Assembly: GCA_046483985.1 (NCBI GenBank)
Contig: JAWOCD010000016.1
Location: 34,704-98,703, forward strand
DNA: 64,000 nt
From: Promethearchaeia archaeon
Lineage (GTDB): Archaea; Asgardarchaeota; Lokiarchaeia; Sigyniarchaeales; SOKP01
Direction: 5' to 3'
Shown here: piece after piece, positions 25,473-42,071 of the stretch
How the letters are laid out: each line of letters begins with the position of its first letter
How positions within the stretch are numbered: position 1 is the stretch's first letter
Position numbers and translations under genes: made by a program
The notes under the pieces: model-generated
What the model saw: the letters and a program-made list of their open reading frames with translations, nothing else
Database searches by the model: none
Told to the model about the DNA's origin: nothing

Positions 25473-26399
25473 ATGTCAAAAAAGAAACTGGTACTTGTTG
25501 GTCCTCCAGAAACGGGGAAGACAACTATAAAAAAGGTTATCTTTAGCGGGGCGGATCCAATAAAATTGTTAGAAGAGCCTTTAATACCTACACGAGGTTT
25601 GGAACCGTCTCTTCATTCTTGGTTGGATCTGGAGTTGGGGGTTTTTGATTCTCCGGGCCAAGAAATTCGAAAACTGTTAGAAGATGAGAAAGTACAATTA
25701 AAAACATTCGGAGATGCGAATGTGGTTATTTATCTTATAGATTTCAAAAGATGGCAGGATAAGGAAGCGGATTTTCTGCAACAAATAAAAATTATCAAAC
25801 AAATACTAAAAAAAAATACTAAGAATGCAAATCTCGCGATATTCTTTCATAAGATTGATCAGCTTCCAGAAGATTCACGAGAGGATCAGATTGAATCCAT
25901 TCGCGAGAAAATTTCAGAACAGTTTGAAATTCCCATTTATTTTACTTCAATTTACCCGAATTTAATTTATAATCTCTATTCTGCATTCTACGATGTTTTG
26001 GGAAACCTTTCTGAAGATACGGCCAACATTAAAGAGATTTTAGACAAGAAAATTACAGACAAGTCTCAAACGATGATATTTGTTACGAACGAGAAAGACA
26101 ATATTGTGGTTCAGACAACGAATCGTGATTTCGAATTTGGGTTGATTAATTATATTCATGAAATGATTGGACAATTAACAGGGACATTAAAGGAGATGAA
26201 AGCCGATGATGAGATTGAACATTTTACCTTGCAAACGGCAAATGAATTTAATATCATCCTCAAAGATATATCTCATTCAAAGCATAATTTACAGAATGTG
26301 GTCTGCATCTCGGGGGATATGAACGCAAATAAACTTATCTTTATGGTGGGAAAACTTTCTCGCGAGATTTACAATTATTACTACAAGAATAAAAAATAA
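25473..26399 (+). CDS. Rag/Gtr-like small GTPase with C-terminal roadblock-like domain
   Basis: GPPETGKT, PT, DSPGQ, HKID, TSI; HKxD and TSI are typical of Rag/Gtr. Confidence 0.8.
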   Translation: MSKKKLVLVGPPETGKTTIKKVIFSGADPIKLLEEPLIPTRGLEPSLHSWLDLELGVFDSPGQEIRKLLEDEKVQLKTFGDANVVIYLIDFKRWQDKEADFLQQIKIIKQILKKNTKNANLAIFFHKIDQLPEDSREDQIESIREKISEQFEIPIYFTSIYPNLIYNLYSAFYDVLGNLSEDTANIKEILDKKITDKSQTMIFVTNEKDNIVVQTTNRDFEFGLINYIHEMIGQLTGTLKEMKADDEIEHFTLQTANEFNIILKDISHSKHNLQNVVCISGDMNANKLIFMVGKLSREIYNYYYKNKK

Positions 26400-26527: not shown

Positions 26528-26634
26528 GCCTCAATAGCTCAGCTGGTAGAGTGTTGCCTTGGTAAGGCAAAGGTCGGGGGATCATAGCAATTCATGAAGC
26601 AATTCGCTTCAGTGGGATAAACCCCCTTGAGGCT
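26528..26634 (+). tRNA. tRNA-Thr(GGT) with one T-loop intron (~26587-26620, position ~59/60)
   Basis: Acceptor GCCTCAA/TTGAGGC; anticodon arm TTGCC-TTGGTAA-GGCAA; T-stem GGGGG/CCCCC split by a 34-nt hairpin insert. Confidence 0.9.
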
Positions 26635-26649
26635 CTATTCATATATCAT

Positions 26650-26816
26650 GCCGGCGTAGCTTAGCTGGTTATAGCGCCAGACTCATAATCCTTCTGAAAA
26701 AAGGGTCAGACAGGATGTAAACGGAAGTCGCTAAGGCTCCCAGATGGACTCTGGAGGTCAGGGGATCATAGGAAATGGAGCATTTCGCTCTCTCCGATTA
26801 AACCCCCTCGCCGGCA
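26650..26816 (+). tRNA. tRNA-Met(CAT), elongator type, with a 61-nt insert at 38/39 (26689-26749, probably two tandem introns) and a T-loop intron (26770-26801)
   Basis: Acceptor GCCGGCG/CGCCGGC; anticodon stem CCAGA/TCTGG; BHB helices TCAT/ATGG and GATC/GATT. Confidence 0.88.
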
Positions 26817-26958
26817 CTTACTTCCAAAATAATTTCAATCAAGGAAAGTCTACCTCCTATTTTGAATATTAATATTCTACAATCACAAAATTCTCTCAAA
26901 TTTTGAGAGAAATTAGAAATAATTACATATATTAGATAAGCAGTTTTAAATGTAAATT

Positions 26959-28524
26959 ATGAAAGATGATGAAAAACTAAGTTCTTTAGACATTGGGAAA
27001 TTGGACAAAAATGCAGAGTGGTTGGGTATCCCTCCAACCCATTTAATGGAATGCGCGGGATATTCGTGTGCATCAGAGATCTATGACCGATATCAACTGG
27101 AGAAAAATCCCAAGAAAAAGGTCTGCATTTTTTGTGGAACTGGCAATAACGGGGGCGATGGATTTGTTGTGGCGCGGCATCTTGCTGCATTAGGAGTATC
27201 AGTTTCTCTTCTTCTTATTGGCAATCCCAAGAAAATTCGGTCGGATGAGGCTAATCTGAACTGGAATATTGTTTCTAATAATTTAACGGACTCTGTATGC
27301 TCAGAAATTGCCAAAGATTCCACAGATGTGTTCGAATTTAGAAAGGAAATCGAAGATGATGGGAATTTTGATATAATTGTGGATTCTCTATTAGGGACAG
27401 GGATAAGTGGGACTATTCGGGAACCAATTGCAACAGCAATTGAAGTTATTAATGCTTTAAAGGAGGAAGAAGGAGAAGATCTTAAGGTCGTGTCCGTTGA
27501 TGTTCCTTCTGGCTTAGATCCGGATACGGGTCATGTGAATGATATGGCAATTAAAACTGATCTGGTGATTACTTTTCATAGAATGAAGCAAGGATTCGAT
27601 CTTGACAATGAATATATCGGTGAAATTGCGGTAAAGAGCATCGGCATTCCACCCGAAGCCTCAAGATATGTGGGAAGCGGAGATGTCCTACCCACGCTTA
27701 ATCAGCGTGCTCCCTCCAACCATAAAGGGCAATTTGGCAGACTACTTATTATTGGCGGTTCTAAAAACTATTCGGGAGCACCAGCTTACTCCTCACTTAC
27801 GGGGATAAGTTATGGGATTGACTTAGTCATTACCTATACACCTCAAGTTGTTGCTGATGTGTTGAGAAGTTATTCTCCAAATTTAATCGTCCGTTCCAGT
27901 CCAGGAGATTGGCTGACCATGGATTCCTTTGATGAAATTGCTGAATTGGTGGAGTGGGCAAATAGCATAGTTATCGGTCCTGGTCTAGGTGAAGAAGAAA
28001 GTACAGAAAAATTATTGGTTTCTTTACTGAAAAAATTCCGGAACGAGAGAAAGTCTTATGTGCTTGATGCAGATGGGCTTAAATTAGTGAAAAATCATAT
28101 GGATTTAATTAAGGGAGAATCTGCGATCTTAACCCCGCATGAGAGGGAATTGAAAATTATGACTGGAGTCTCTCTTCCACCAGTAGATCAAAAAAAGGAA
28201 AGAGGAATAAAAGTTTTTGAACTTGCTCGAGAACTGAACGTAACATTATTAGTCAAAGGGCCTTATGATTATATTGCAAATCCAAAGCGGATGAAATCTA
28301 ACAAAACGGGATGTCCAGAGATGGCCATCGGGGGAACTGGAGACGTGTTGGCAGGATTATGTGCAAGTCTGATGGCTACTGGAAATGATCCTTTTGAGGC
28401 TGCTTGCTCAGCGGCGTTTATTAACGGAAAAGTGGGAGAATTTTGTAAGAAAATTTTCCATCAGCGCTTTACTGCAATGGATATGATCGAGAATCTCGGA
28501 GAAGTTCTCGGAGATCTACAATAG
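26959..28524 (+). CDS. nnr: Bifunctional NAD(P)H-hydrate epimerase/dehydratase
   Basis: LMECAG, GTGNNGGDG, DSLLGTG, DVPSG; HKGQFG, GPGLG, LTPH..E, GGTGDVLAG. Confidence 0.95.
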   Translation: MKDDEKLSSLDIGKLDKNAEWLGIPPTHLMECAGYSCASEIYDRYQLEKNPKKKVCIFCGTGNNGGDGFVVARHLAALGVSVSLLLIGNPKKIRSDEANLNWNIVSNNLTDSVCSEIAKDSTDVFEFRKEIEDDGNFDIIVDSLLGTGISGTIREPIATAIEVINALKEEEGEDLKVVSVDVPSGLDPDTGHVNDMAIKTDLVITFHRMKQGFDLDNEYIGEIAVKSIGIPPEASRYVGSGDVLPTLNQRAPSNHKGQFGRLLIIGGSKNYSGAPAYSSLTGISYGIDLVITYTPQVVADVLRSYSPNLIVRSSPGDWLTMDSFDEIAELVEWANSIVIGPGLGEEESTEKLLVSLLKKFRNERKSYVLDADGLKLVKNHMDLIKGESAILTPHERELKIMTGVSLPPVDQKKERGIKVFELARELNVTLLVKGPYDYIANPKRMKSNKTGCPEMAIGGTGDVLAGLCASLMATGNDPFEAACSAAFINGKVGEFCKKIFHQRFTAMDMIENLGEVLGDLQ

Positions 28525-28586
28525 GTTTCTTATCTTTATTTTTTTTCTGTATTCACGTTTAAAAAAAGGAGACCCAAAAAGAATAT

Positions 28587-29270
28587 TTAAATCTCTGAAT
28601 ATAAGTATCCAAGCATTCTTCCGAATGACTCAAATTCTTCTCTTTCTTTTATCTGGATGAGTTTTTCTTCTTTAAAATTAAATAGACTTGTTTGGAATAG
28701 ATGACACAGAGGAGATCTTAACATATCTCCTAAAAACTCGGCTAACTTCTTTTTATAGACTTCTAATCGTTTAAGACTTTCGCATAAGTCGCATTTGTGC
28801 AGAAAAATGTATAATTTTGGTTTAGTTGTATAGATGTGATCCAGTTGCTTTAGATACAGATTTTTAATCAAATCCTCCAAATACTCTAAGGATTGAATAA
28901 ATTTTTCTCTTGGAAGGGGATTAATTACATATAATAACTCATCAAAGCCCGAAAGTTTTTCTAGTTCATTTAACCATCGAATCCGAGATCTGAGCACTCC
29001 ACTATGATCCCATATATAATAGGTTTTATCATTGATTAAAATTGGAGTAATAGACCTTCCTTGGGTTGCCTTCAGATCTAATACGTTCTGGATAGTTCCA
29101 CTTTTCATTGCCTTTACCATTCCCGTTTTTCCGGTATTTTGTAATCCCAAAACCAAAATTTTTCTTGTTTTCTGAATGGAAGTGACAATACAAAATTCCT
29201 TAGGATTTTTATTCTCTATGGTGCAATCCCAACATTTTTCCAAATTAAAATTATCTTTTTCCTTAATCAA
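28587..29270 (-). CDS. Divergent Arf/Rag-like small GTPase
   Basis: GLQNTGKT, WDHSG, HKCD, TSL. Confidence 0.75.
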   Translation of the reverse strand: MIKEKDNFNLEKCWDCTIENKNPKEFCIVTSIQKTRKILVLGLQNTGKTGMVKAMKSGTIQNVLDLKATQGRSITPILINDKTYYIWDHSGVLRSRIRWLNELEKLSGFDELLYVINPLPREKFIQSLEYLEDLIKNLYLKQLDHIYTTKPKLYIFLHKCDLCESLKRLEVYKKKLAEFLGDMLRSPLCHLFQTSLFNFKEEKLIQIKEREEFESFGRMLGYLYSEI

Positions 29271-29492
29271 TTCAATTATAATTAGTTTTTATTACATTTA
29301 TAAGGAGTGGTTAATATCAAATGGGAATAACAACCACCACAACAAACTTTCACTTATAAGGTAATTCCACATATACTTATCTTATGGCTTCAAACCCAAA
29401 AAGAGAGGTCGCAAAAATAATATAGTTTTTTAAAAAAGCAACTTTAATCATATCGACCCTTAATTCTGAAAAGAAGCGTGATATCTGGATAT

Positions 29493-29526
29493 ATATGATT
29501 AAAAATTATTATAGCAAAAGATTATA
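29493..29526 (+). repeat. 34-bp dispersed direct repeat, copy 1
   Basis: ATATGATTAAAAATTATTATAGCAAAAGATTATA; 33/34 identical to 31587-31620. Confidence 0.8.
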
Positions 29527-29603
29527 CATCGTTTCTTTTATATACCTTCCACACCATAAATGGATTATACATATTTTTCGTCGAAAAGCAATAATCTTTT
29601 TAA

Positions 29604-29900
29604 CGATCTGCGAAAGAAGTCCCCATCCCTTTAGGGAGGGGATGAATTTCGTATATTATACAAACATTTTTATATTTGGTTTTTGGTATTATCTTAGTAA
29701 CCAAGTGAATAGAATGGGATACGAACTTGATAAAGGTGCTCATTCGGTGTATTCATTAAATAAACTACCATTACATCTGTTGTGTAAAATCTCGAAGAAA
29801 GATATTCCATACCGATGAAATAATCAATAGATTAAAAGAAATTAATATATCGTTAGCGGAAAAAAATGATATTAAAATTCTTAATCAAGAAACCGATCGG
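29604..29900 (+). pseudogene. tnpA: IS200-type left end plus 5' half of tnpA (frameshifted, truncated)
   Basis: Same left-end hairpin as 2363; ATG at 29714 gives MGYELDKGAHSVYSL, then NYHYICCVKSRRKIF...ILNQETD in a shifted frame. Confidence 0.85.
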
Positions 29901-29977
29901 AATAAAAACTAAATAACAAGTAAGATTGTAATAAAATGATATTTATTGTTTAGTTTTCAAAATGAATCGGATTTAAA

Positions 29978-31213
29978 ATGTCGCAAATTAAACCGCTCGT
30001 TCTCCAAGCTAAAGCGTTCGTGAAAATGATAAACTGGATGGGGAAATTCGCTAATTTCACTACCATCCCGCAAAGTAATTGGGTTGAGGCAATGGGAATA
30101 ATTTTTTGCCGAGATACACCAGATAAATATATCATTGTGGATGCTGAAGGGATTACCTCTGGTGATCTCGTTTATGTTGAGACTAGCCCGCAGCAAGTAG
30201 CAAAGATCACGCAAATAGAGGCAAAACTCCAAAAGAAAGACGCGGGAATTTATGCAGGCGGCTGGTTTCATTCTCACCCTGGCCATGGCATATTCTATTC
30301 TGGCACAGATTTATCCAATCAAGCTTACTGGCAGACGGGAAATCCAAACGGGGTCGGGTTAGTGTTTGATTTAACGAAAGTAACGGAGAATTTCATCGGG
30401 TTTAAATTTTTTCGATTGGATGCTCCCCAAGCCCAAACCTATCATGAGGTTGATTATGAACTCCATGGATTTACCGAAGAGACTCTTATGAAAGCATACA
30501 AACCGATTGGTATTGATGTCAAAACGATCCACCGGTTAGCGAAAAATCTGGGATTAAAATCAAAGGAAGGCATAGTGGAATTCGAAAAAATTAAACTACC
30601 AGAGACAGATAATCCACTCGAAGCTGGGAAAGAAGCGGCTCAGAAAGCGAAAGAAGCCTACTTAGAAGGAAATATTCCCAATGCCCTAAAAAATTACCGC
30701 CTTGCAAACATGTTCCTTAAGAAGACGGCTGAGGGAGATTTATATCTCGACTGCACTATTTCTTTGGCGGAATTATGTATCCATTATGATTATCCCGAAA
30801 CCGTTCATAAACTCATAAAGGAGATTATCTTATTTGCAAAAAAAATGGATATTAGCCCAGATTACTATGTAGGTAAAACGGACATTCTTAAAGGCTACTT
30901 TAATGAATTAAAGGGCAATATAGAGAAAGCGCAGACCCAATATCAAAAAGCATATGAGACATTCAAATCAAAAAAGATGTTTTATGAAGCGTTTCAAGGT
31001 GCCGAATTAGTGGGTGGCACATCTTGGAAACTAAACAAGCCAAATGAGGCCCTTCCACTTTTTAAGGATGCCCTTTATAATCTTACTATGGCGGAGAAGA
31101 AAGATAAAGAAAAACACGAGCCAATTATCTGGAAAACGATCAGGAAGCGGGTATCTTCAAAAATTAAAGATGTTGAACAAGAGCTCGGCGAACAAGGAAT
31201 TGAAAAAGTTTAA
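29978..31213 (+). CDS. MPN+/JAMM metalloprotease domain fused to TPR/SNAP-like helical repeats
   Basis: EAMG..., GWFHSHPGHGIFYSGTD (complete E-HxH-x7-S-x2-D); helical repeats after about residue 210. Confidence 0.85.
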   Translation: MSQIKPLVLQAKAFVKMINWMGKFANFTTIPQSNWVEAMGIIFCRDTPDKYIIVDAEGITSGDLVYVETSPQQVAKITQIEAKLQKKDAGIYAGGWFHSHPGHGIFYSGTDLSNQAYWQTGNPNGVGLVFDLTKVTENFIGFKFFRLDAPQAQTYHEVDYELHGFTEETLMKAYKPIGIDVKTIHRLAKNLGLKSKEGIVEFEKIKLPETDNPLEAGKEAAQKAKEAYLEGNIPNALKNYRLANMFLKKTAEGDLYLDCTISLAELCIHYDYPETVHKLIKEIILFAKKMDISPDYYVGKTDILKGYFNELKGNIEKAQTQYQKAYETFKSKKMFYEAFQGAELVGGTSWKLNKPNEALPLFKDALYNLTMAEKKDKEKHEPIIWKTIRKRVSSKIKDVEQELGEQGIEKV

Positions 31214-31361
31214 ACTTGTAAAGTTCAATCATCATTTTGGACCATATTCGCATTATCTCTCTAGTTCAATTTTTGAGTGATTAGGAGTTTGTCAAACATA
31301 GCCTCTGTGTAGTCTCCACTTTCCTTGTTTTTTTTCTTTAGCATGATACTCTTTCATTTAA

Positions 31362-31403
31362 CGATCGTAGGAATCCCCGTCCTTTAGGGCGGGGAGACTT
31401 CAA
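31362..31403 (+). mobile_element. Minimal IS200/IS605 derivative (left-end tip fused to right end)
   Basis: TTTAA|CGATC (left-end start, as at 2363 and 29604) runs directly into GTAGGAATCCCCGTCCTTTAGGGCGGGGAGACTTCAA. Confidence 0.7.
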
Positions 31404-31586
31404 TTCCAGTACATTATATCTCACTTAAATTATATTCTTCTTTCCGAAACGTTGAGATTAAAAAGCAATGCCGGGATTTTTTAGTTGGATTTTTACTCTC
31501 CCTTAAGATCATGATATTTATAGTCTTTTGCATAAGTTTTTTTACATTTCATAGTTCTGGTTTTTCTAATTTACAAATTTATAATA

Positions 31587-31620
31587 ATATGATTAAAAAT
31601 TATTATAGCAAAAGACTATA
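31587..31620 (+). repeat. 34-bp dispersed direct repeat, copy 2
   Basis: Matches 29493-29526. Confidence 0.8.
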
Positions 31621-31852
31621 TGTTAGGGCTTCTTAATATTTCGTTAGGATATTTATTTATTTATTTATTTATTGCGGTATTGGAACATTCAAATAAGGAA
31701 GTATATGGAGGCATATTTCGTGGGAAAACTTATGGTATATTTATCACTTATTCTTCTACTAAAAAAATTTATAATAGATTTTTGATTTTAATAGTTATCT
31801 TATTTATTTAAATACAAAACCGTGTTAAGAATAAATAAGAGAATGCAACGGT

Positions 31853-32046
31853 GCCAAGGTGGCGTAGCCCGGAGTATTCTGGATTAACCCAAATATGGGT
31901 AAGAACGCACCAGTATATCTTGGATTTCTAAGATATGGTGAGACTGAAGATCTGGGTATCGAGAAAGCCATTTCATTTCGATTGGTTTCGAAAAGGTTCA
32001 AATAATAAGTGCTTTTCGCACTTGCTTGGACGTCCCTCCCTTGGCA
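31853..32046 (+). tRNA. tRNA-Phe(GAA) with four introns (31873-31902, 31914-31942, 31964-31994, 32003-32032)
   Basis: Removing four BHB-bounded inserts gives the 74-nt cloverleaf GCCAAGG TG GCGT AGCCCGGGA ACGC A CCAGA CTGAAGA TCTGG GTATC GAGGG TTCAAAT CCCTC CCTTGGC A. Confidence 0.9.
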
Positions 32047-32169
32047 CTTATTTAAATTTTATTTATGATTTTTTCTGACTGTTTTTTGTTTAAGAAAATT
32101 TTTTCCTTCTTTTTTTTTCTTGTATTTTAATCCTTAATCTCCTTAATTTGAAAGAGGTCCTTGTTTTGA

Positions 32170-32691
32170 TTAAAGATTTTCTGGATCAAAGGGGATATTC
32201 ATATGGGTAGGCGTGAGCTCAAATTCCACGGTGATTGTAGGTATTGTATCTAGATCTATTGTGAGTTCATGCTCCCCTTCCGTAAGTTGTTCGATATATT
32301 TCATCTCTAATTTTAACACAACGGTTAATGCATCCCCCAATCCTAACACTCGACCTCCAGCTTTTCCGGAAAGAAAATCATCCAATCTAAATGCATCTCC
32401 TTGATGATAGATGGTAAGATTATCCCGAACAAAATTGGTATCCACGTTTTTTCTCGAAATATCGATTGGTTCTCCATCCAAGAGAATTTCACCCCACTCA
32501 GATAAATCAAATTCATTGATATCGAAACTCCCTAGATCTATATTTTCAGGGATGGTGAACGGTTGGAATTTGTTAATGGCTTTTAGCTGAATGGCATCTG
32601 GAGAGCCATCACTGTTGGTATCTATGGTAGACACTGCTTTCTTAGGGGGGAAAATCTTTTTAATTAAAAAGGGCGGAATTTTAAAAGGCAA
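32170..32691 (-). CDS. Hypothetical protein
   Basis: 173-aa acidic ORF with TTG start. Confidence 0.65.
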   Translation of the reverse strand: MPFKIPPFLIKKIFPPKKAVSTIDTNSDGSPDAIQLKAINKFQPFTIPENIDLGSFDINEFDLSEWGEILLDGEPIDISRKNVDTNFVRDNLTIYHQGDAFRLDDFLSGKAGGRVLGLGDALTVVLKLEMKYIEQLTEGEHELTIDLDTIPTITVEFELTPTHMNIPFDPENL

Positions 32692-32783
32692 TTATTATCA
32701 CGTGTTTTCAGTTTATTTCTTTAATCTATATATATGGTTTATCTATTTGAATAAATAATTTGAGTTAATACAATAAAAACTTA

Positions 32784-33815
32784 TCATTTTGTTATTTCAG
32801 AGAGTTGGACGGGTCGATTCTCTTCAAATGATCTTTGAGCGGCTTTTGCCACCACCACATTTTGTAACCCATCCCATCCATCGGGTTTTGGATCTTTATC
32901 TTCAAGGATGCAATCGATGAATGACTGTATTTCCGTAGCATACGAGCCCATATATCGTTCGAGAAAGAAATATGGAATTTTATCTTTTTTGGTCTTTTCG
33001 GCAGTATATACTTCAACCGTATTTGGTGTATCATTATCCGCCCGTGCACATCCTTTTGAACCGAACACTTCTGCTCTTTGATCATATCCATAGACTGCTT
33101 GGCGAGAATTATCGATAATTCCCAATGCTCCATTTTTAAACTTGAGGGTTGCCACAGCGGTGTCGATATCCCCTTCTCTTCCAATTTCTGGATCAATTAA
33201 TACTGCACCATTGGCATAAACCTCCTCTACCTCACTTTCTGCCAGAAATCGAGCCATATCCCAATCATGGATAGTCATATCTAAAAAGATTCCACCCGAT
33301 CCTTTAATATAATCTATTGGGGGGGGTTCTGGATCCCGAGCAGTAATTTTTATGATATGCGGCTTGCCTATAGTACCCGAGATGACCGCTTTATGGAGAC
33401 GCGCAAAATTATGATCGAACCGACGGTTAAAGCCTACCATGAACTTTACATCCTCTTCCTCGATGATATCCAAAGTTTCCTTTATTCGTTCTATATTAGT
33501 GTCAATAGGTTTTTCACAGAATACTTGCTTCTTTGCTTTAGCCGCTTTTTGGATAAATTCTGCGTGGGTATCCGTAGAAGATGCAATAAGAATTGCGTCT
33601 ATCTCTGGATCGTCAAAAATCAGATGCGGATCATCCACTAATTTCGGTACCCCCATTTCGGTACACCAATGCTTTAACTCATCCGTGATCATTACATCTG
33701 CGACTACTTCAAGTTGAGCATTTTTGACTTCTTTCAATAAGTTTTCAATATGCACGCGCCCGATTCGGCCCGCCCCAATGATGCCTACACTAATCTCTTT
33801 TGACAACCTTATCAA
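32784..33815 (-). CDS. iolG: myo-inositol 2-dehydrogenase
   Basis: GAGRIG, FCEKP, GFNRRFD, RDPEPP, SGGIFLDMTIHD, YGYDQRAE. Confidence 0.9.
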   Translation of the reverse strand: MIRLSKEISVGIIGAGRIGRVHIENLLKEVKNAQLEVVADVMITDELKHWCTEMGVPKLVDDPHLIFDDPEIDAILIASSTDTHAEFIQKAAKAKKQVFCEKPIDTNIERIKETLDIIEEEDVKFMVGFNRRFDHNFARLHKAVISGTIGKPHIIKITARDPEPPPIDYIKGSGGIFLDMTIHDWDMARFLAESEVEEVYANGAVLIDPEIGREGDIDTAVATLKFKNGALGIIDNSRQAVYGYDQRAEVFGSKGCARADNDTPNTVEVYTAEKTKKDKIPYFFLERYMGSYATEIQSFIDCILEDKDPKPDGWDGLQNVVVAKAAQRSFEENRPVQLSEITK

Positions 33816-33914
33816 CTATATGTTTTTATTCTATTTTATGTTGATCTATATAACATTATTTTGTTTAATTTATTATTTTATGTATAAAATTGTTTCTTGT
33901 AAAGTGATTGAAAA

Positions 33915-35096
33915 ATGAAAGTAGTAGAATTAGATGCAGAATGGGCTCCGAAGCCGAGTTATACACTCGGTTCGAAGGACATTGAGGGCGAACTCACCTA
34001 TTTGGGTTCCAAGGTGTGGAAAGATCCGAAGATTCGGGTCACGGAAAAGGAAAAACCGACCATTAACGACGATGAGGTATTAATTAATGTCAAGCGGTGC
34101 GGTATCTGTGGCTCGGATGTTCATATGGCTCAGACCTACGAAGATGGCTTTATTTATTATCCTGGATTGACAGCGTTTCCAGCAGTTCTTGGTCATGAAT
34201 TTGCGGGAGAGATCGTGGAAGTGGGAGAAAATGCGATAAATAAAAGAACCAGAAAGAAATATGAGGTTGGGGAACCAGTTACTGTGGAAGAAATGGTATG
34301 GTGCGGAGAATGCAGACCGTGTTGTGATGGATATCCAAATCACTGTGAATCCCTTCAAGAAATTGGCTTTTCAATCGATGGTGCCTACGCTGAATATATT
34401 GCGGTGCCAGCAAAACTCTGCTGGAGCTTAAAAAAGTTGGAGGGAGAGTACGGTGATATTTTTAAAGCCGGAAGTCTGGTTGAGCCGACCTCTGTTGCCT
34501 ATAATGCCGTAATTGAGCGGGGCGGCGGGATTCGACCTGGTGAGAATGTAGTGATATTAGGTGCCGGTCCTATTGGGATCGCAGCGACTCGAATCCTAAA
34601 ATTTGCTGGAGCCGCAAATTGTATCGTTTCAGAACCCAATGAACATCGCGCAAAACTGGTCAAACAGATGGGTGCAGACTATATCATCAATCCCGAAGAA
34701 GAGGATTTTGTGGAGAAAGTGAAAGAATATACTGGAGATGAAGGAGCAGCTCTCTATCTCGAAGCGACTGGTCTTCCCCACATTGTGATTGAGGATATTC
34801 AAAATGCCATATGGGAGTGTAGTGCAGTTAATAGTACGATAGTCGTTGTGGCGCGTGCAGAACAAGATATGGAGATCACTGGAGAATATCTTCAGGTCAG
34901 ACGGGCACGTATTATTGGGGCGCAAGGTCACAGCGGACATGGGACTTTCCCGAATGTGATTAGTTGCATGGCAGCGGGCATGGATATGACCCCCATGATT
35001 ACGAAAGAAATAAGTTTAGACGATGTTCCCGAAAATCTGAAATTACTGCAAACAGACCGAAAAAATTGTAAAATTTCTGCGGTTATCGATCAATAA
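33915..35096 (+). CDS. iolM: scyllo-inosose 3-dehydrogenase-like Zn-dependent dehydrogenase
   Basis: CGICGSD, YPGLT.FP..LGHE, CGECRPC..G..NHC, GAQGHSGHGTFP; next to iolG. Confidence 0.8.
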   Translation: MKVVELDAEWAPKPSYTLGSKDIEGELTYLGSKVWKDPKIRVTEKEKPTINDDEVLINVKRCGICGSDVHMAQTYEDGFIYYPGLTAFPAVLGHEFAGEIVEVGENAINKRTRKKYEVGEPVTVEEMVWCGECRPCCDGYPNHCESLQEIGFSIDGAYAEYIAVPAKLCWSLKKLEGEYGDIFKAGSLVEPTSVAYNAVIERGGGIRPGENVVILGAGPIGIAATRILKFAGAANCIVSEPNEHRAKLVKQMGADYIINPEEEDFVEKVKEYTGDEGAALYLEATGLPHIVIEDIQNAIWECSAVNSTIVVVARAEQDMEITGEYLQVRRARIIGAQGHSGHGTFPNVISCMAAGMDMTPMITKEISLDDVPENLKLLQTDRKNCKISAVIDQ

Positions 35097-35365
35097 TTTT
35101 TGGTTTTTTTTCTTTTTTTTGAAAAATTTTAATTTTTATAGCGATCTTAGCCTTTTTTGAGTTGTTGACTAAGCGTTCTATGCCCAATTTTAGGAAATAG
35201 AGATATAAACTTATCAATTATGATCTATCTTCCTTTAAAAATCAACTAGATTTAAACGAAAGATTTAAATATGTTTTTTTACTTAATCAATATGAAGTTT
35301 GTAAAGTCAATCTTTACAAACCAAAAATTAAGTAAAGTTAAAAAAATAAATTGGAGGTTAGTATT

Positions 35366-35881
35366 ATGTCAGAGGAAGAAAAAGAATCTGAAGAACAAAA
35401 GTCGCGAGAAATTGCCGTACGAAGGGAAAACCCATTTTCTCTCTTTCAAGAAATGGATAAATTATTTGATGAATTATCCCGGAACTTTTTTGATTTTCCG
35501 AGGAGAAGAAGGTCGTTTGATCTCGGCATACCCGAAGAAGGCCCTATCTTTAGGACACCATTATCAAATATAACGGAAACAGAAGATAACTTTGAAATCT
35601 CCGCAGAATTACCGGGACTTGATAGGGAAGACATTGAAGTCACCATCCACGACGGAAATTTGGAAATTAAAGGCGAAACAAAGGAAGAAGAGAAGGAAGA
35701 AGAGGAAGGAGAAGTCGTCCGAAGAGAATACAGGAGCTCCAGTTATTACCGGGCGTTTAGCTTACCGGAAAATATTGAAGAGGATGACATCGATGCTCAC
35801 CTAGAAAAGGGAGTGCTTAAAGTTTCCATTCCGAAGGCGGAACTTCCTGAGAAAGAGAAAAAGAAGATTGAGGTCAAATAG
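35366..35881 (+). CDS. Small heat-shock protein (Hsp20)
   Basis: AELPG, RAFSLPENI, A.LEKGVLKVSIPK; GGAGG ribosome-binding site before ATG 35366. Confidence 0.93.
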   Translation: MSEEEKESEEQKSREIAVRRENPFSLFQEMDKLFDELSRNFFDFPRRRRSFDLGIPEEGPIFRTPLSNITETEDNFEISAELPGLDREDIEVTIHDGNLEIKGETKEEEKEEEEGEVVRREYRSSSYYRAFSLPENIEEDDIDAHLEKGVLKVSIPKAELPEKEKKKIEVK

Positions 35882-36021
35882 TGACCTTTTATCTCCAATC
35901 TAATTTCCAATTTTTTTCCTTTTTTTTTCCCAAGATTTATTCTAATATGAGATAAACTTAAATAGAATCAAAGTTGATTGACATTAATTTTATCGGGAGT
36001 TAAGCGAGGTGAATGATAAAA

Positions 36022-36328
36022 ATGATGGCATTTATACAAGAATTTAATGTTTCGTTACTTTTTATTGCCATCCTCGGTCGGTGTTACTCAGTTCTCCGAA
36101 TGCATTCTTTCAGCTTTGGCATTTCTGATCTACTTTATTTTGAATGATTACGTAAAAATTATCTTTACTATCCAAATGGCGGTGATTATGGTAATTTCAG
36201 GTGCCTTTGCGGCTCCTCTTGGTGCTTTGGTGCCAAAAAAATTGAAAGAATCGACGGCGAGAAAAATAGTGGGGATATCTTTGATGACTTTAGGGGTCAT
36301 TACCCTATTACGCATATTGTTCCTATAA
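36022..36328 (+). pseudogene. TauE/SafE-like permease pseudogene with internal deletion
   Basis: RBS and MMAFIQEFNVSLLFIAILG join out of frame to SVGVTQFSE...GAFAAPLGA...ARKIVG. Confidence 0.55.
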
Positions 36329-36482
36329 CATATAACTCATTTTTTCTTATTCGTTAATTGCTAAGTCTGCGTGAGAATCTTTTTGGAAGTAATCATTACT
36401 CCTTTATCTTTATTCTATAAAAGTATTTCTTCATTTTGAATATAAAATTTGATCATTCAAAAAACTTTTTTTATCCCTCGTT

Positions 36483-37304
36483 CTACTCACGTATCCCAAT
36501 CTTTTTGAGATGTTCGACCGTCTGCTGGGCCACGTCTTTGAAGGATGGTTTCATAATAGTCTCCACTGAGATATACCCTTCAAATTGGGCGTTTTTGAAA
36601 ATCTTCAGAAATCTTTTGAAATTGAAACATCCAGTACCTGGCGCCCGTCGGTTGGTATCCGCAAGATGGATATGTCCAACGGAATCCGAATTCTCGTTTA
36701 AATAATCCCATACAGTCTCTGGATTTTCTTCCAAATTGGTATGGTAAGTATCGACAAGCAGTTTGATATTGTTGTTATTTATCTCGTTAATCAAAGCAAG
36801 GGAATCTTCAAAGGTGTTAAAGGAATCAATTTCAAACTGATTGATGGGCTCAAATAACAAGGTCACTCCAAATTCTTCTGCAATCTCAGAACATTTCCGA
36901 AGAGAATTTTTGATATTTTTCCGTTCTATGGCGGGGTCACTTTCATAGGAATATCTGCCTCGAATTAGCCCGATGACCACGTTTGAATCCGTCTGAGCAC
37001 CAAATTCACAGAATTTTCTGATCCGATTCAACGCTTTTTTCCGCATTTTCTGTTCATGATGCCCCAGTGAATATCCGAACCGAATAAAGGTTCCACCAGT
37101 TCCCAATGCAGAGATGTCTAATCCATATGATGACCTTATCTCATTAATTGAATCCACGGGGACTTTTTCGGGCTCTAATAAACCCAATTCCACCGCATCA
37201 TACCCTAATGAGTCGAGGAGGGTGCAAATATCTTGAAATTTCTCTTCTACTTTTTCTGTTTGGAGGGTCGATTCATTAAGACCCGAAACAATGCTTAATT
37301 TCAT
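36483..37304 (-). CDS. iolO: Sugar phosphate isomerase/epimerase (5-keto-L-gluconate epimerase IolO-like)
   Basis: ALGTG, IGLIRG, FEPIN..E, DTYH.N.EE, HIHLADTNRRAPGTG, SVE; iol gene context. Confidence 0.75.
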   Translation of the reverse strand: MKLSIVSGLNESTLQTEKVEEKFQDICTLLDSLGYDAVELGLLEPEKVPVDSINEIRSSYGLDISALGTGGTFIRFGYSLGHHEQKMRKKALNRIRKFCEFGAQTDSNVVIGLIRGRYSYESDPAIERKNIKNSLRKCSEIAEEFGVTLLFEPINQFEIDSFNTFEDSLALINEINNNNIKLLVDTYHTNLEENPETVWDYLNENSDSVGHIHLADTNRRAPGTGCFNFKRFLKIFKNAQFEGYISVETIMKPSFKDVAQQTVEHLKKIGIRE

Positions 37305-37406
37305 ACTTTAAATGAAGAATAAATCGAAATTAAAGTTTTATCTTAGGATTCAATATTCTATAGTATACTATTTTAATTTTTTATGACAAAAAAGAGATGA
37401 GGATAA

Positions 37407-38372
37407 ATGACTGATTGGAAACTTCCTCCAGAAGGAGGACATATGGATTTAGCAGATGGTCTTTATCTGCAAAATATGAGTATAAAACAAATAAAAGAAC
37501 GTGTGGAAGAGAATGATGTAATTATTATCCCTATAGGCTCTACGGAAAACCATGGTCCTGCTGCGTGTATCGGCGAAGATACGTTTTTAGTCACCCGTAT
37601 GGCGGAGAAAGTTGCAAAACAAACGGGCTGTACAATAGCACAACCGATATGGTATGGAAGTCATCCTTACCATCACGTGGGGATGCCAGGCTCCATTATT
37701 GTCCCCGAAGATATCTTTAAGGGGCAAATACGTGCGGTAATCGCGGGATTATGGAATATTGGCTTTCGAAAGCAAATTCTTTTGAATGGGCACGGACAAG
37801 AGTATGTTATTCCTTCGGCTATTCACGAATGGGCTAAAAATTATCAATTACCTGCAGTGTTATGCAACTTTAATTGGTATCATGCAATCCCCGAGCTATG
37901 TAAAGATCAAGAGCATGGTGGACCTTTCGAAACACCCTTTATTCATGCCGATGAAGCTGAAACCTCCTTTTCTATGACATTATTCCCGGAGATGGTAAAT
38001 TTAGAAGATGCGGTAGATAACGAACCAGTAGGTTGGATGCCAGAAGGACATGCAGATAAGGCGGGAAATGTATATCAGCAACCTATTCGATGGTACGGGC
38101 AAGTTGGATTCGGTCCAATAGAAGTGGCCGCTTATCCCGAAGGCAATGTAGGAAGTCCAAGTAAGGCCACCCTTGACAAAGGAAAGCCCGGGATTGAAGC
38201 CGTCCTCGATTATTTGGAAAAATTGGTAAATGATATTTTAAAAACATTTCCACCAGGAAAACTCCCTCCGATTGAGAAGATTACTCAGAGAGATCCCGAA
38301 GAGGTTAAAGAGTATCTTAAAGGACCGCTTAACGGAGGAAAAAGTATCTACGAGCTGCGTTATCCCCCATAA
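37407..38372 (+). CDS. iolN: Creatininase-family hydrolase (3-dehydro-scyllo-inosose hydrolase IolN-like)
   Basis: PIGSTENHG, GED, WYGSHPYHH, NGHGQE, HADEAETS; iol gene context. Confidence 0.78.
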   Translation: MTDWKLPPEGGHMDLADGLYLQNMSIKQIKERVEENDVIIIPIGSTENHGPAACIGEDTFLVTRMAEKVAKQTGCTIAQPIWYGSHPYHHVGMPGSIIVPEDIFKGQIRAVIAGLWNIGFRKQILLNGHGQEYVIPSAIHEWAKNYQLPAVLCNFNWYHAIPELCKDQEHGGPFETPFIHADEAETSFSMTLFPEMVNLEDAVDNEPVGWMPEGHADKAGNVYQQPIRWYGQVGFGPIEVAAYPEGNVGSPSKATLDKGKPGIEAVLDYLEKLVNDILKTFPPGKLPPIEKITQRDPEEVKEYLKGPLNGGKSIYELRYPP

Positions 38373-38461
38373 AGGCACTTAAATTTCATTAATTTAATAT
38401 CTTTTTCTTTTTATTTCTATCAAAATATTTTATTTATTTTATTAAAAAGGAAAAAATAGAT

Positions 38462-38950
38462 TTAATCAATACTGGCGCCGCAAAATTCGCAGAACTTGGC
38501 ATCTTGTTTCTTTAGTAGTGTTCCACAGCGGGGACAATATTTTGGTTGCGATTCTTCAATTTTTACTTCTTCCTTCTTTGGTTCTTTTTTCAATTTTCCT
38601 GTCTTACTTGAAAATTTTCCTTTCAATTCTCCGTTCGCTTTTAAATCGAAAATTGCTGCATGCACGTCCTTTTTAGATATGCCTGTCTTGGTGCTTACTT
38701 CTTTAATGGATGCGTTGGGATCTTCCTCAAACTCAGTTTTCACAATATTGCGGATCTTACTTTTATTTGTCAAGGCACGTATTTGCCCCGTTAAGATCGC
38801 AATACCTATACTCAGCCAGAGAAACCCAATCCAGTTGAAGCCGTAAAGACCTTCCCTTAATGTACTAATTCCCCAAAACATAAAAGCACCGGCGATAATT
38901 AATCCACATATATTGAAACCTTCACTATATTGGTTCTTTTCATATTTCAT
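38462..38950 (-). CDS. Membrane protein with HTH-like middle and C-terminal zinc ribbon
   Basis: Two TM segments; CPRCG...FCEFCG. Confidence 0.8.
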   Translation of the reverse strand: MKYEKNQYSEGFNICGLIIAGAFMFWGISTLREGLYGFNWIGFLWLSIGIAILTGQIRALTNKSKIRNIVKTEFEEDPNASIKEVSTKTGISKKDVHAAIFDLKANGELKGKFSSKTGKLKKEPKKEEVKIEESQPKYCPRCGTLLKKQDAKFCEFCGASID

Positions 38951-39048
38951 TTGTTATTATCATCATCTCATAGATTCAATCTTATTATTATTAAAAAATA
39001 CTTAGTTTAAATTTGTTTTATAGTCCAATTTTCCCTTACGAAAAATTA

Positions 39049-39094
39049 CATTAGGGAGCACGAATCCACCGCCCTTTAGGGCGTGGTAGTTCAA
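39049..39094 (+). mobile_element. IS200/IS605 right-end remnant
   Basis: CGAATCCACCGCCCTTTAGGGCGTGGTAGTTCAA. Confidence 0.75.
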
Positions 39095-39113
39095 GTGAAT
39101 ACCAAGTGCATAA

Positions 39114-39476
39114 TTATGGAGGATTAGTGGATTTGTTTATAATGCGAAACACTTGTTTCATTTCTACTTGGTCGGTGGTGAGAAGAATAATAATATTTTT
39201 AAGTATTTTGACGGAAATGATATAATAATCATCGGAATGGATTAAATTAAAATCAGGATTATGTAGTCCAACTGAATCCGTTATCTCCTCGGCAAGTTCA
39301 TAAAGTTGTGAAACATTAAGGGATATGGCAGCTTTGTTGAACTCGTCCTCATTGATATAGGATTTTTTTACGACGCCATTCTCTGAACTAATTAAGCAGA
39401 AAAAAATCTTTCCTTCTAATTCATTTACTAGGTTGCTTAACAAGTCGCCGAGATTCAAATCAAGATCTGTAACCAT
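39114..39476 (-). CDS. Roadblock/profilin-like small protein
   Basis: Helix followed by CLISSENGVV strand pattern; 120 aa; fold call is an inference. Confidence 0.6.
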   Translation of the reverse strand: MVTDLDLNLGDLLSNLVNELEGKIFFCLISSENGVVKKSYINEDEFNKAAISLNVSQLYELAEEITDSVGLHNPDFNLIHSDDYYIISVKILKNIIILLTTDQVEMKQVFRIINKSTNPP

Positions 39477-39649
39477 TATTTTAATGATAAAAGTTCTATA
39501 AATATATAATTTTAGTATTTGATCTTTAATTTTTTTAATATGTAATTTTCCGAAATGAAATGTGAAACTTCTGCTTTAAAAAAGAGGATTGAAAAATACA
39601 AGCCATATAGAATTTAAAAGAAATGGAACAATCAGTAAGATGAGTAAGA

Positions 39650-39755
39650 TGGTGGCCTTGGGAGGATTTCCGCGAGAACACGAGAGGTGTCCTTTTTTCG
39701 AACCCCCGATAGCCCAGTCCGAAGCCGGGTGCCTTATCCACTAGACTACAAGGCC
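39650..39755 (-). tRNA. tRNA-Arg(TCG) with a 30-nt intron at 59/60 (39667-39696); CCA encoded
   Basis: GGCCTTG/CAAGGCC acceptor; CCCGG-CTTCGGA-CTGGG; BHB helix TTCG/CGGA. Confidence 0.92.
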
Positions 39756-39896
39756 AAAAGTATTTATTTATGTATATTATATATCAGATTAATAACAACT
39801 TTTATTAAAATTAAATATTGAAATAAAAGTTCTATGGTATAATCTATTAAGGATTTCTAAAAAAATTTTTTAAAATTAAATTTCTATTATTATATA

Positions 39897-40130
39897 ATGA
39901 AAAAATCGGAAAAAGAATCAGTAAAAGAACATACAGTCGAAATCGCGAACTTCCTTTTACGAGATACAGAATCATTACGCAATGAAATCCAATTTACAAA
40001 ATTAACAGATATGGTTCATCCACTTACATTTACCTATGATTTGAAAAACCAGGAGCATCTAAATCTTATTCCGGCGGTTTCTTCAAGAAATGAAGAATTT
40101 ATTAGAAAATTCTTAGATTTGTACAAATAA
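39897..40130 (+). CDS. Small hypothetical protein or fragment
   Basis: 77-aa ORF after AT-rich promoter-like DNA. Confidence 0.4.
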   Translation: MKKSEKESVKEHTVEIANFLLRDTESLRNEIQFTKLTDMVHPLTFTYDLKNQEHLNLIPAVSSRNEEFIRKFLDLYK

Positions 40131-40140
40131 GTAGAATTCC

Positions 40141-40572
40141 TTATTTTTTTCTCAACAATTCTTTAATTAATTTAACGCTATAATTGATAAGATTTCGGGC
40201 TCTAATCGCATAGGATAAATCTCCTTTTAACTTTATAACTCCTTTCATATATGCTTCAGAAATTGTTATTGTAGAATCATATATTTTTCGTATCGTTTCT
40301 TCATCAATAGAAACGCTTAAATCCGGATTGGGATGTTTCCCATGTCCATATGAGATGTGCTGGTTTTTAAGTTCAATCCAAAAATTAATCTCCTGATCCA
40401 AAATTTCGATCTGATAGATTTCATTTAATTCTGAAATTTCTTCTTTTATTTCTTCAAGAATATTGAGATAATTGATTATATGCTTAATTAATTTCTCAAA
40501 CAAGCGACTAATACTTCGTTTTGGGTCTTCTAATGATTTTAATATAGATTCAACTTGTTCAAAATTTCGCAT
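40141..40572 (-). CDS. SCP2 sterol/lipid-binding domain protein
   Basis: PDLSV.ID, AYMKGVIKLKGDL..A. Confidence 0.85.
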   Translation of the reverse strand: MRNFEQVESILKSLEDPKRSISRLFEKLIKHIINYLNILEEIKEEISELNEIYQIEILDQEINFWIELKNQHISYGHGKHPNPDLSVSIDEETIRKIYDSTITISEAYMKGVIKLKGDLSYAIRARNLINYSVKLIKELLRKK

Positions 40573-40640
40573 ATTTTTCTCATACCCGCTGTTAGGTCTC
40601 TAAATATTAGATGGATTTTATAGTATATAAATGATTTTGT

Positions 40641-40864
40641 TTGAACTACCATGTCCTAAAGGGTGATGGATTCGTAATTCATCGAGAATCGCCGACACAG
40701 ATAACATAGGTCTTACATCCTTTCCAAATGCCAACCCCGTAGTCCTTACGGTTGGGGATGAACTTGGTTATCGTCTATCAATTACATTATAGTAGAGCTC
40801 CTTTATAAATATATATGCGATTCATTACCACCCTTTAGGACGGTGCTTTCTCGCACTCTATGGG
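40641..40864 (-). mobile_element. Complete ~224-bp IS605-derived MITE, no ORF, with putative omegaRNA scaffold
   Basis: Left-end hairpin CACCGTCCTAAAGGGTG; TTTATAAA box; AACCGTAAGGACTACGGGGTT; right end CGAATCCATCACCCTTTAGGACATGGTAGTTCAA. Confidence 0.75.
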
Positions 40865-41146
40865 TAAATCATTTAGGGTGATTGTAAAAACTCAAATAAA
40901 TGCTCAAACACATTAATAAAGATCATCATGGTTGTTAAATCCCCTTGAGCTTTAATTAATTCTTTCATTTATGCTACTCTTCCCCGTATTTTCTCAGATA
41001 ATATTTTTTAATAAAATTCTTTATCTATTTTCACCCTTAAGTCTGTGTTTGGATTTTTTTAAACTTTTCTTTAGTTTTCTGCGTTTTCCTTTAAATTAAG
41101 AATTGTTTTCCTTAAATCTCCCATAATAAGAACCTATTTTTTTCTC

Positions 41147-41827
41147 TCATTTAAATTTCTTTGGATTTGGCTGAAATTTAACGCAAATAGAAGTTGGCGC
41201 TACGAACTCTTTAAGGACTCCGCAATATTGCTTTTCTTGTTGATAATTTGCACATTTATTACAACTTAATCTCCGATCTGTAAGCTTATTTTGGAGTGCT
41301 AATAGAGCCGTCTTGTATTTCTCCTCATCCAAATCACTTTTGGGTTTTTTCACCCCAATGTCAACAAAATCGGCATATAATTCTATTGCAGAAGGCGGGG
41401 TCCAAAACCTTCTCAGTTTCTTGACAGTCCCATTTTCGGTCTTTATTTCTTGGACTTCTCTGTGCTTTTTCTTTCTTTCTAAATTTCTTAAAAACTTCTC
41501 CGCCGCAGTCCGAATTTCATGGTCTTCAGAGTCTAAATGTGCTTCCAAAGCCTCCTTAATGTTATCTTGATCAACCTCGGATAAACGGTCAAAAATATTG
41601 GGTCCTTCCTTAACATCCAAGGTCTGTTTATAATAATTCATAAGCATATTCCATATTGCAGGATCTTTCATAGAAAAAAACTGCGAAAAGACCCCCTTTG
41701 TCCGCTGATAACTAAATTTATCCATTAAATGCTTGATAGCTGATCGCATTTGAATAAATTGCTTTAAAAGCTGCTTGAAAGCTTTCATATTCTCTTTTTT
41801 GGTCATTTTATCTAGTCCTTCTGCCAT
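41147..41827 (-). CDS. Hypothetical protein with C-terminal Cys cluster
   Basis: 226-aa ORF; CNKC...YC...IC. Confidence 0.7.
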   Translation of the reverse strand: MAEGLDKMTKKENMKAFKQLLKQFIQMRSAIKHLMDKFSYQRTKGVFSQFFSMKDPAIWNMLMNYYKQTLDVKEGPNIFDRLSEVDQDNIKEALEAHLDSEDHEIRTAAEKFLRNLERKKKHREVQEIKTENGTVKKLRRFWTPPSAIELYADFVDIGVKKPKSDLDEEKYKTALLALQNKLTDRRLSCNKCANYQQEKQYCGVLKEFVAPTSICVKFQPNPKKFK

Positions 41828-41932
41828 TTTTTTATTGGGTACATTGATTTAACATTTTATCTGATTATGTGATGTAACAATTGATCCCTCTAAATATGTT
41901 GCATTTAGCATCGAATGGTGAAAAAGAAATAA

Positions 41933-42071
41933 TGGCGCCCACAGCGGGAATCTCATAAAACGGCGAACTGCTGCTTTTATTTTGAACCCGCGTCGTAGGA
42001 GTGACAGTCCCAAATGCTAGTCCGGGGTTTGCCATGTATAGAATTTATACGAATGTCTACACTATGTGGGC
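41933..42071 (-). tRNA. tRNA-Asp(GTC) with two introns (15/16: 42027-42056; 59/60: 41950-41980); CCA encoded
   Basis: GCCCACA/TGTGGGC acceptor; TGGGA-CTGTCAC-TCCTA; BHB helices TTCA/TGAG and TGT/GCA. Confidence 0.9.

What the first reader, a model, noticed from the sequence alone, without database searches (positions are those of the whole stretch)
26528..42071. All five tRNAs carry uniform ~30-nt non-canonical introns with a shared apical loop: a candidate mobile intron family
Seen: 11 intron units (10 if the Met pair is one) of 29-34 nt at positions 15/16, 19/20, 30/31, 38/39, 51/52 and 58-60; none at 37/38. All five genes have a T-loop intron. Eight units have a related loop: GC-AATTC-GC (Thr), GC-ATTTC-GC (Met), TC-ATTTC-GA, GC-TTTTC-GC and G-ATTTC-T (Phe), GC-AGTTC-GC and TA-AATTC-TA (Asp), AC-CTCTC-GT (Arg). 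Established: BHB splicing depends on junction structure, not loop sequence, and intron transposition has been proposed in Thermoproteales. Inference: shared length and loop imply common descent by spreading, or a binding factor/function for the excised circles. T-loop introns would also break the tRNA 3' att sites used by integrative elements.
Basis: partly seen in the sequence, partly recalled or inferred. Interest (0 to 1): 0.85.

Follow-up and report, generated by a model that had tools for sequence, protein, structure and literature searches.

The report
Stereotyped 30-base introns in Loki tRNAs
The five tRNA genes of this Asgard (Loki-type) archaeon are split by protein-spliced introns, which is already known in Asgard archaea, but the introns in the T-loop share one fixed 30-base design with a U-C-tipped hairpin that recurs across the whole family and in three protein-coding genes, a clue to the open question of how such introns arrive.

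Summary
Confirmed: five tRNAs with 11 bulge-helix-bulge (BHB) intron units of 29-34 nt, in a Lokiarchaeia genome. The window is not typical of the genome: 43 introns in 29 of 46 tRNA genes, 19-51 nt, seven at 37/38, only 12 in T-loops. The shared design belongs to the T-loop class: 1 nt + 9-bp stem + 5-nt loop ending UC + 4-nt helix strand + 2 nt = 30 nt. NNYUC caps 11 of 12 T-loop introns here (shuffles 0.6). In 14 genera most are 29-31 nt and about 60% end in UC while stems are scrambled; no 37/38 intron does. Three mRNA introns of this genome (EF-2, AMP phosphorylase, WecC) have the same layout and cap. Copying between tRNAs occurs but is rare and position-preserving; Met took its T-loop from neighbouring Thr. 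So this is an old, family-wide intron class with a constrained cap, not a recent burst. Environmental RNA contigs skip two introns exactly, but an intron-less strain is not excluded. Intron-rich Asgard tRNAs are published; I found no paper on the cassette. This scan has noted it before in other Asgard genomes.

The parts
26528..26634 (+). tRNA-Thr(GGT) gene; mature T-loop has A54 and U58
   Evidence: same T-loop in intron-less relatives
26587..26620 (+). T-loop intron 59/60, 34 nt, loop AAUUC, relaxed BHB
   Evidence: exact 34-nt skip in RNA-library contigs X3 and X5
26650..26816 (+). tRNA-Met(CAT) gene; T-loop exon matches the adjacent Thr gene, unlike Met genes of relatives
26689..26720 (+). 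Met intron 38/39, first unit, 32 nt; old, shared by most relatives; no UC cap
26721..26749 (+). Met intron 38/39, second unit, 29 nt, added at the 3' splice site of the first; seen only in this genome; loop GCUAA
26770..26801 (+). T-loop intron 58/59, 32 nt, loop AUUUC, full BHB
   Evidence: exact 32-nt skip in contig of run X1
31853..32046 (+). tRNA-Phe(GAA) gene with four introns
   Evidence: same four in G006 and G014
31873..31902 (+). Phe D-loop intron 19/20, 30 nt, no UC cap
31914..31942 (+). Phe anticodon-stem intron 30/31, 29 nt; loop differs among orthologues
31964..31994 (+). Phe T-stem intron 51/52, 31 nt, relaxed BHB, weak stem
32003..32032 (+). Phe T-loop intron 59/60, exact 30-nt cassette, loop UUUUC
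39653..39755 (-). tRNA-Arg(TCG) gene
39667..39696 (-). Arg T-loop intron 59/60, 30 nt, loop CUCUC
41936..42071 (-). tRNA-Asp(GTC) gene
41950..41980 (-). Asp T-loop intron 59/60, 31 nt, loop AGUUC
42027..42056 (-). Asp D-loop intron 15/16, 30 nt, loop AAUUC, relaxed BHB

Best explanation
These are ordinary BHB introns in how they are removed: cut by a broad-specificity EndA and joined by RtcB (inferred from known archaeal splicing and from the genes present). The T-loop introns, and a few mRNA introns, form an old, family-wide class with a fixed build: a 9-bp stem of almost any sequence, a 5-nt loop ending U-C, and a 4-nt strand that pairs with the exon, 30 nt in all (shown). The class keeps moving slowly. 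Between tRNAs it moves by DNA-level gene conversion through the near-identical T-arm, so copies land at the same position and can carry exon bases with them (partly shown). Rarely it reaches unrelated sites such as EF-2 by an unknown, homology-free route (the gain is shown, the route is not). The U-C cap and stem length are held by weak selection, most likely a contact with a host RNA-binding factor that favours gain or efficient processing; they are not needed for splicing as such (inferred).
For: Geometry and cap: columns 2-10 pair with 16-24, U14 in 60 of 74 and C15 in 50 of 74 30-nt T-loop introns. 11 of 12 in this genome. 52 of 83 well-folded T-loop introns end in UC against 0 of 10 at 36-39. 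With a pattern allowing 13-43 nt, 90 of 117 family hits are 29-31 nt. Stems are scrambled: mean identity between tRNA types 0.41-0.43, close to a null that keeps fold and loop (0.41). In orthologous pairs loop positions 11-13 differ in 28 of 69 cells, positions 14-15 in 7 of 46 (Fisher p = 0.004). Same-position copying: 8 of 243 within-genome pairs from different amino acids are at least 70% alike against 0.45 expected, and 0 of 213 at different positions. Co-conversion: 27 of 28 Met genes of relatives have C54, while this Met has the A54/U58 loop of the adjacent Thr. mRNA copies: EF-2, AMP phosphorylase and WecC introns have the exact layout, loops AUGUC, GCAUC, GUAUC, and their removal restores conserved motifs; the EF-2 intron is in 1 of 71 genomes. 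EndA has the K-P-R loop of broad-specificity enzymes (PMC12397907); two RtcB genes are present. Exact skips in RNA-library contigs.
Against: No factor is identified. The cap is dispensable: of 21 orthologous AMP phosphorylase introns 10 end in UC, 5 in UA and 6 in neither. The second Met unit looks newly gained yet has no UC cap. No donor was found for the three mRNA introns (best core identity 0.67-0.70) and no reverse transcriptase. Only 2 of 43 introns are in 80% families, in line with the preprint's finding that copying is not general in Asgard. Orthologue pairs are related genomes, so the p-value overstates. The Met/Thr match rests on one genome. The EndA beta gene is missing from this assembly.
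Confidence: 0.55

Rival explanations
1. Processing constraint only: introns arise independently, and those in hard contexts (T-loop, mRNA) survive only if they offer a 9-bp stem and UC tip that EndA or a helper uses as a ruler in place of the tRNA body. Copying is incidental.
For: Stems are no more alike than the fold-and-loop null. The cap is confined to T-loop and mRNA introns and absent at 37/38. No donors found. The preprint found no general copying.
Against: The cap is lost in functional orthologues. Other Asgard families splice T-loop introns of 14-43 nt with other loops. The excess of same-position look-alikes needs some copying.
Confidence: 0.22
2. Neutral birthmark: one founder intron had this loop and length; descendants keep it only through common descent, while template-switch repair scrambles the stems quickly.
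For: Caps differ between lineages (UGCG-type loops in families f7 and f16). The cap decays in old orthologues.
Against: Positions 11-13 of the same loop change nearly three times as often as 14-15. The cap holds with C-G, G-C and A-U closing pairs and occurs in a second family (G026).
Confidence: 0.15
3. Recent local burst of one mobile intron through these five neighbouring genes (the literal first reading).
For: 5 of 5 window genes have a T-loop intron against 12 of 46 genome-wide (hypergeometric 6e-4, post hoc). Thr and Met introns share about 13 of 15 central bases.
Against: The Phe introns, the Asp T-loop intron position and the first Met intron are shared across genera. Apart from Thr and Met the window introns are not alike; no window pair reaches 70%.
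Confidence: 0.05
4. The cassette derives from IS200/IS605 end hairpins, which are common in this genome and also carry a C-G-closed pentaloop.
For: CUUUA is the commonest genomic pentaloop; about 165 such ends in the genome, four in the window.
Against: IS stems are GC-rich and fixed, intron stems are AT-rich and unrelated. Intron cores have no extra genomic copies (3 against 4 in controls).
Confidence: 0.03

Closest known systems
Multi-intron tRNA genes of Asgard archaea (Valentin-Alvarado 2024, PMC11291895; Goswami 2026, bioRxiv 10.64898/2026.10.13.758758)
   Same: Non-canonical BHB introns, several per gene, T-arm and D-arm hot spots, repeated gain and loss; this genome has 0.93 introns per gene, matching the 0.91 given for non-focal Asgard families.
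   Different: Neither paper describes a fixed 30-nt layout, a loop cap or mRNA copies; the preprint tests only whole-intron identity (80%), which misses a cap on scrambled stems, and does not name Lokiarchaeia in its main text.
Transposed tRNA intron families of Thermoproteales (Fujishima 2010, as summarised in PMC4033280 and PMC4090602)
   Same: Related introns in different tRNA types; DNA-level gain proposed; BHB defines where they can sit.
   Different: There 28% of introns are in 80%-identity families; here 2 of 43. The likeness here is in geometry and loop tip, and copies keep their position.
cbf5 pre-mRNA intron of Crenarchaeota (own knowledge; named in earlier scan notes, paper not read here)
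   Same: BHB intron inside a coding sequence.
   Different: Here at least three unrelated genes carry one, each with the build of the tRNA T-loop introns; splicing is not shown.

Membership tests
Archaeal BHB (EndA/RtcB) tRNA introns | Two 3-nt bulges around a 4-bp helix at the junctions | tested here: met
   4/4 helix in 8 of 11 window units by sequence, 3/4 with flanking helices in Thr, Phe 51/52 and Asp 15/16; the two Met 38/39 units were read by eye
Archaeal BHB (EndA/RtcB) tRNA introns | Removal restores a canonical cloverleaf that matches intron-less orthologues | tested here: met
Archaeal BHB (EndA/RtcB) tRNA introns | Host encodes EndA and RtcB | tested here: met
   EndA alpha with K-P-R loop; two RtcB; beta paralogue in 4 of 4 relatives, not in this assembly
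Archaeal BHB (EndA/RtcB) tRNA introns | Spliced out of the RNA in vivo | tested here: inconclusive
   Exact skips of the Thr and Met T-loop introns in RNA-library contigs of a related strain, one study, no DNA control
Thermoproteales-type transposed intron families | A large share of introns in 80%-identity families across tRNA types | tested here: not met
   2 of 43 against 28%
Thermoproteales-type transposed intron families | Any excess of cross-type look-alikes over chance | tested here: met
   8 of 243 against 0.45, same position only
Autonomous mobile introns (group I/II, homing-endonuclease introns) | Catalytic RNA core or intron-encoded endonuclease or reverse transcriptase | tested here: not met
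   Units are 29-34 nt with no ORF; no Rfam intron match in the window; no PF00078 in the genome
IS200/IS605-derived elements | Stem sequence shared with IS ends and dispersed copies | tested here: not met

The most novel reading that the evidence does not exclude
The 30-nt UC-capped hairpin is a non-autonomous mobile RNA element. The excised circle (a dumbbell with a 5-nt cap and a 7-nt guide loop) is recognised by a dedicated host factor, reverse-spliced by EndA and RtcB into any RNA that pairs with its 4-nt guide, tRNA or mRNA alike, and then fixed in DNA. That would be an active intron-gain system seeding protein-coding genes in the closest prokaryotic relatives of eukaryotes.
Probability: 0.15. 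Interest if true: 0.9.

Novelty: new variant of a known kind. Interest (0 to 1): 0.62.

Why it matters
A 2026 preprint calls the arrival of Asgard tRNA introns the central open problem and found no copying signal by sequence identity. A fixed 30-nt layout with a constrained loop tip, shared by T-loop and mRNA introns, is a signal that identity tests miss. It gives direct experiments (loop and stem-length mutants, pull-downs), points to recent gains that can be studied (EF-2 here, the second Met unit), and implies that essential genes such as EF-2 depend on tRNA-type splicing. It also matters for annotation: ARAGORN found none of the five tRNAs.

Tried and rejected
ARAGORN and Rfam miss these genes; a custom insertion-tolerant scan was needed. 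A collection-wide scan with the Thr junction 16-mer gave only chance hits. The look-up of the neighbouring NnrE protein found nothing. Using the cassette alone to predict introns genome-wide does not work: 28 hits against 19-26 in slid controls, so further mRNA introns may be missed and rRNA introns were not specifically assessed; no covariance model was built. No extra genomic copies of intron cores. No donors for the mRNA introns. No reverse transcriptase. No duplicated tRNA 3' ends marking integration, only paralogue matches, so the att-protection idea has no support here. The EndA beta gene was not found; the two weak candidates were unrelated. Reading the Thr and Met T-loops with A58 (intron at 57/58) was rejected because it forms no BHB and intron-less relatives show U58. 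The first relative set was picked with a 25-33-nt window and by eye, so length was re-tested with a 13-43-nt pattern; those hits were not all checked to be tRNAs. RNA contigs gave no information on the Phe, Arg or Asp introns. Ala(TGC) and Arg(CCG) genes were not found in the assembly.
Full report
Host. The window lies on contig C24 of a 4.06-Mb, 35% GC assembly. The nearest named homologues of its splicing endonuclease are from Promethearchaeota/Lokiarchaeota, it has a Sec tRNA, and the window encodes Rag- and Arf-like GTPases. It is a Lokiarchaeia genome.

Observation. Standard tools miss the genes. A profile scan that allows long insertions without using the splicing motif recovered all five. 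The Met insert is two tandem introns, because relatives carry only the first. Seven of 11 units have a hairpin centred on NNYUC, against 0.3 in two kinds of shuffle.

The window against the genome. The genome has 46 tRNA genes found, 29 with 43 introns of 19-51 nt; seven are at 37/38 and 12 in the T-loop. So 'none canonical, all uniform' is a property of the window. The loop signal holds outside the window (8 of 32, null 0.6) and is concentrated in T-loops: 11 of 12 against 4 of 31 elsewhere. Among real genomic pentaloop hairpins NNYUC is 4.3% and NNNUC 7.7%. Five of five T-loop genes in one window is unlikely by chance (6e-4, post hoc); inheritance of the Phe and Asp introns and a Thr-to-Met transfer explain part of it, and the rest is unexplained.

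The class across relatives. I collected 343 introns, 143 of them in T-loops, from 34 genomes in 14 genera. T-loop introns have a fixed build: one bulge base, a 9-bp stem, a 5-nt loop, the 4-nt strand that pairs with the exon, and two bulge bases, 30 nt in all. U14 is present in 60 of 74 and C15 in 50 of 74; the closing pair is mostly C-G at 59/60 and A-U at 58/59. By region, UC ends 52 of 83 well-folded T-loop loops, 6 of 23 in the D-arm and 0 of 10 at 36-39. A pattern allowing 13-43 nt gave 90 of 117 hits at 29-31 nt in this family; four of six other Asgard families sampled had 24-31% in that range and other loop types, while one (f23) was as tight and one was too small to judge. A complete genome of a sister family has one such intron with loop AUUUC.

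Descent or constraint. Stems of T-loop introns in different tRNA types are about as alike as a null that keeps only fold and loop (0.43 against 0.41). In 23 orthologous pairs the first three loop bases differ in 41% of cells, the U-C in 15%, stems in about 23%. That pattern indicates weak continuing constraint on U14-C15, with the caveat that genomes are related. The cap is not required for splicing: the orthologous AMP phosphorylase intron has lost it in 6 of 21 genomes and has UA in 5.

Movement. Only 2 of 43 introns here fall in an 80% cross-type family, far below Thermoproteales (28%) and near the Asgard figure of the preprint (1.5%). Yet 8 of 243 within-genome, same-position pairs from different amino acids reach 70% in the core, against 0.45 expected, and none of 213 at different positions does; examples are Lys/Ala/Thr here and adjacent Ser/Lys genes in G058. 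The Met gene of this window has the A54/U58 T-loop of its Thr neighbour, whereas 27 of 28 Met genes of relatives have C54, and the two introns share their centre. Exon bases moving with the intron region fit DNA-level gene conversion; this is one case. No reverse transcriptase was found.

Beyond tRNA. Following leads from earlier scan notes, I scanned for BHB inserts whose removal joins two reading frames. Three are convincing because they restore conserved motifs: EF-2 (C115:48042), AMP phosphorylase (C32:149457) and a WecC-like dehydrogenase (C45:48366). All are exactly 30 nt with the same layout and a UC-ended loop. The EF-2 intron is present in 1 of 71 genomes, so it is a recent gain; no donor was found. 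The second Met unit also looks recent but lacks the cap.

Machinery and RNA. EndA is most like the Aeropyrum catalytic subunit and keeps the K-P-R loop linked to broad specificity (PMC12397907). Four of four relatives have a second paralogue, missing from this draft. Two RtcB genes are present. Contigs from salt-lake RNA libraries skip exactly the 34-nt Thr intron (two runs) and the 32-nt Met intron (one run) at the predicted borders. They come from a related strain and one study, with no DNA control, so they show precise absence, not proven splicing.

Verdict. Removal by EndA and RtcB is known chemistry and intron-rich Asgard tRNAs are published (PMC11291895; bioRxiv 10.64898/2026.10.13.758758). 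What I did not find in five literature searches is the stereotyped, capped 30-nt class shared by T-loop and mRNA introns. The best reading is an old family-wide class that still spreads slowly and whose cap is weakly held by a host factor (0.55). The scan has noted the same build in other Asgard genomes; those notes are leads, not independent support. New variant of a known kind; interest 0.62.

Noticed in passing
window 26576-26625 and 26760-26806: Mature Thr(GGT) and Met T-loops have A54 and U58 in place of the near-universal U54 and A58; the same loop is in 11 of 21 Thr(GGT) genes of relatives, 6 of them intron-less. Met genes of relatives have C54.
   Followed up: partly
G000 C115:48042 (L314), C32:149457 (L315), C45:48366: 30-nt BHB introns with in-frame stops in EF-2, AMP phosphorylase and a WecC-like gene.
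   Followed up: yes
G000 C17:70440-70594: tRNA-Ile with a TAT anticodon (eukaryote-like AUA decoding), with two introns; also seen in many relatives and G026.
   Followed up: no
L073 4332-4477 (G016) and G126/G056 Met genes: The old Met 38/39 intron sequence appears shifted to another position in the anticodon arm or variable region, as if by duplication of the arm: possible intron sliding.
   Followed up: no
window 25297, 31377, 39069, 40828: IS200/IS605-type end hairpins with no transposase beside them, three of them within about 1.1 kb of a tRNA gene; about 165 in the genome.
   Followed up: partly
G000 C56:8115-8214 (L316): tRNA-like element with acceptor stem and T-arm but no recognisable D or anticodon arm; weak Rfam tRNA hit.
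   Followed up: no
G000 C37:24400 and C66:103302 (L310, L311): Two full-length RtcB paralogues, while the EndA beta gene present in relatives is missing from this assembly.
   Followed up: partly
window 33915-38372: scyllo-inosose dehydrogenase (IolM) and hydrolase (IolN) above their NCBIfam cut-offs: Thermotoga-type inositol catabolism.
   Followed up: no
window 25473-26399 and 28587-29270: Rag/Gtr-like and Arf-like small GTPases flank the Thr-Met-NnrE block; a JAB-domain protein lies at 29978-31213.
   Followed up: no
families f7 and f16; G179: Other Asgard families cap T-loop introns with UGCG-type loops, and G179 has about 20 T-loop introns, mostly 17-21 nt.
   Followed up: no
L230 (G033): A Sec tRNA carrying both a 37/38 intron and a 30-nt T-loop intron.
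   Followed up: no
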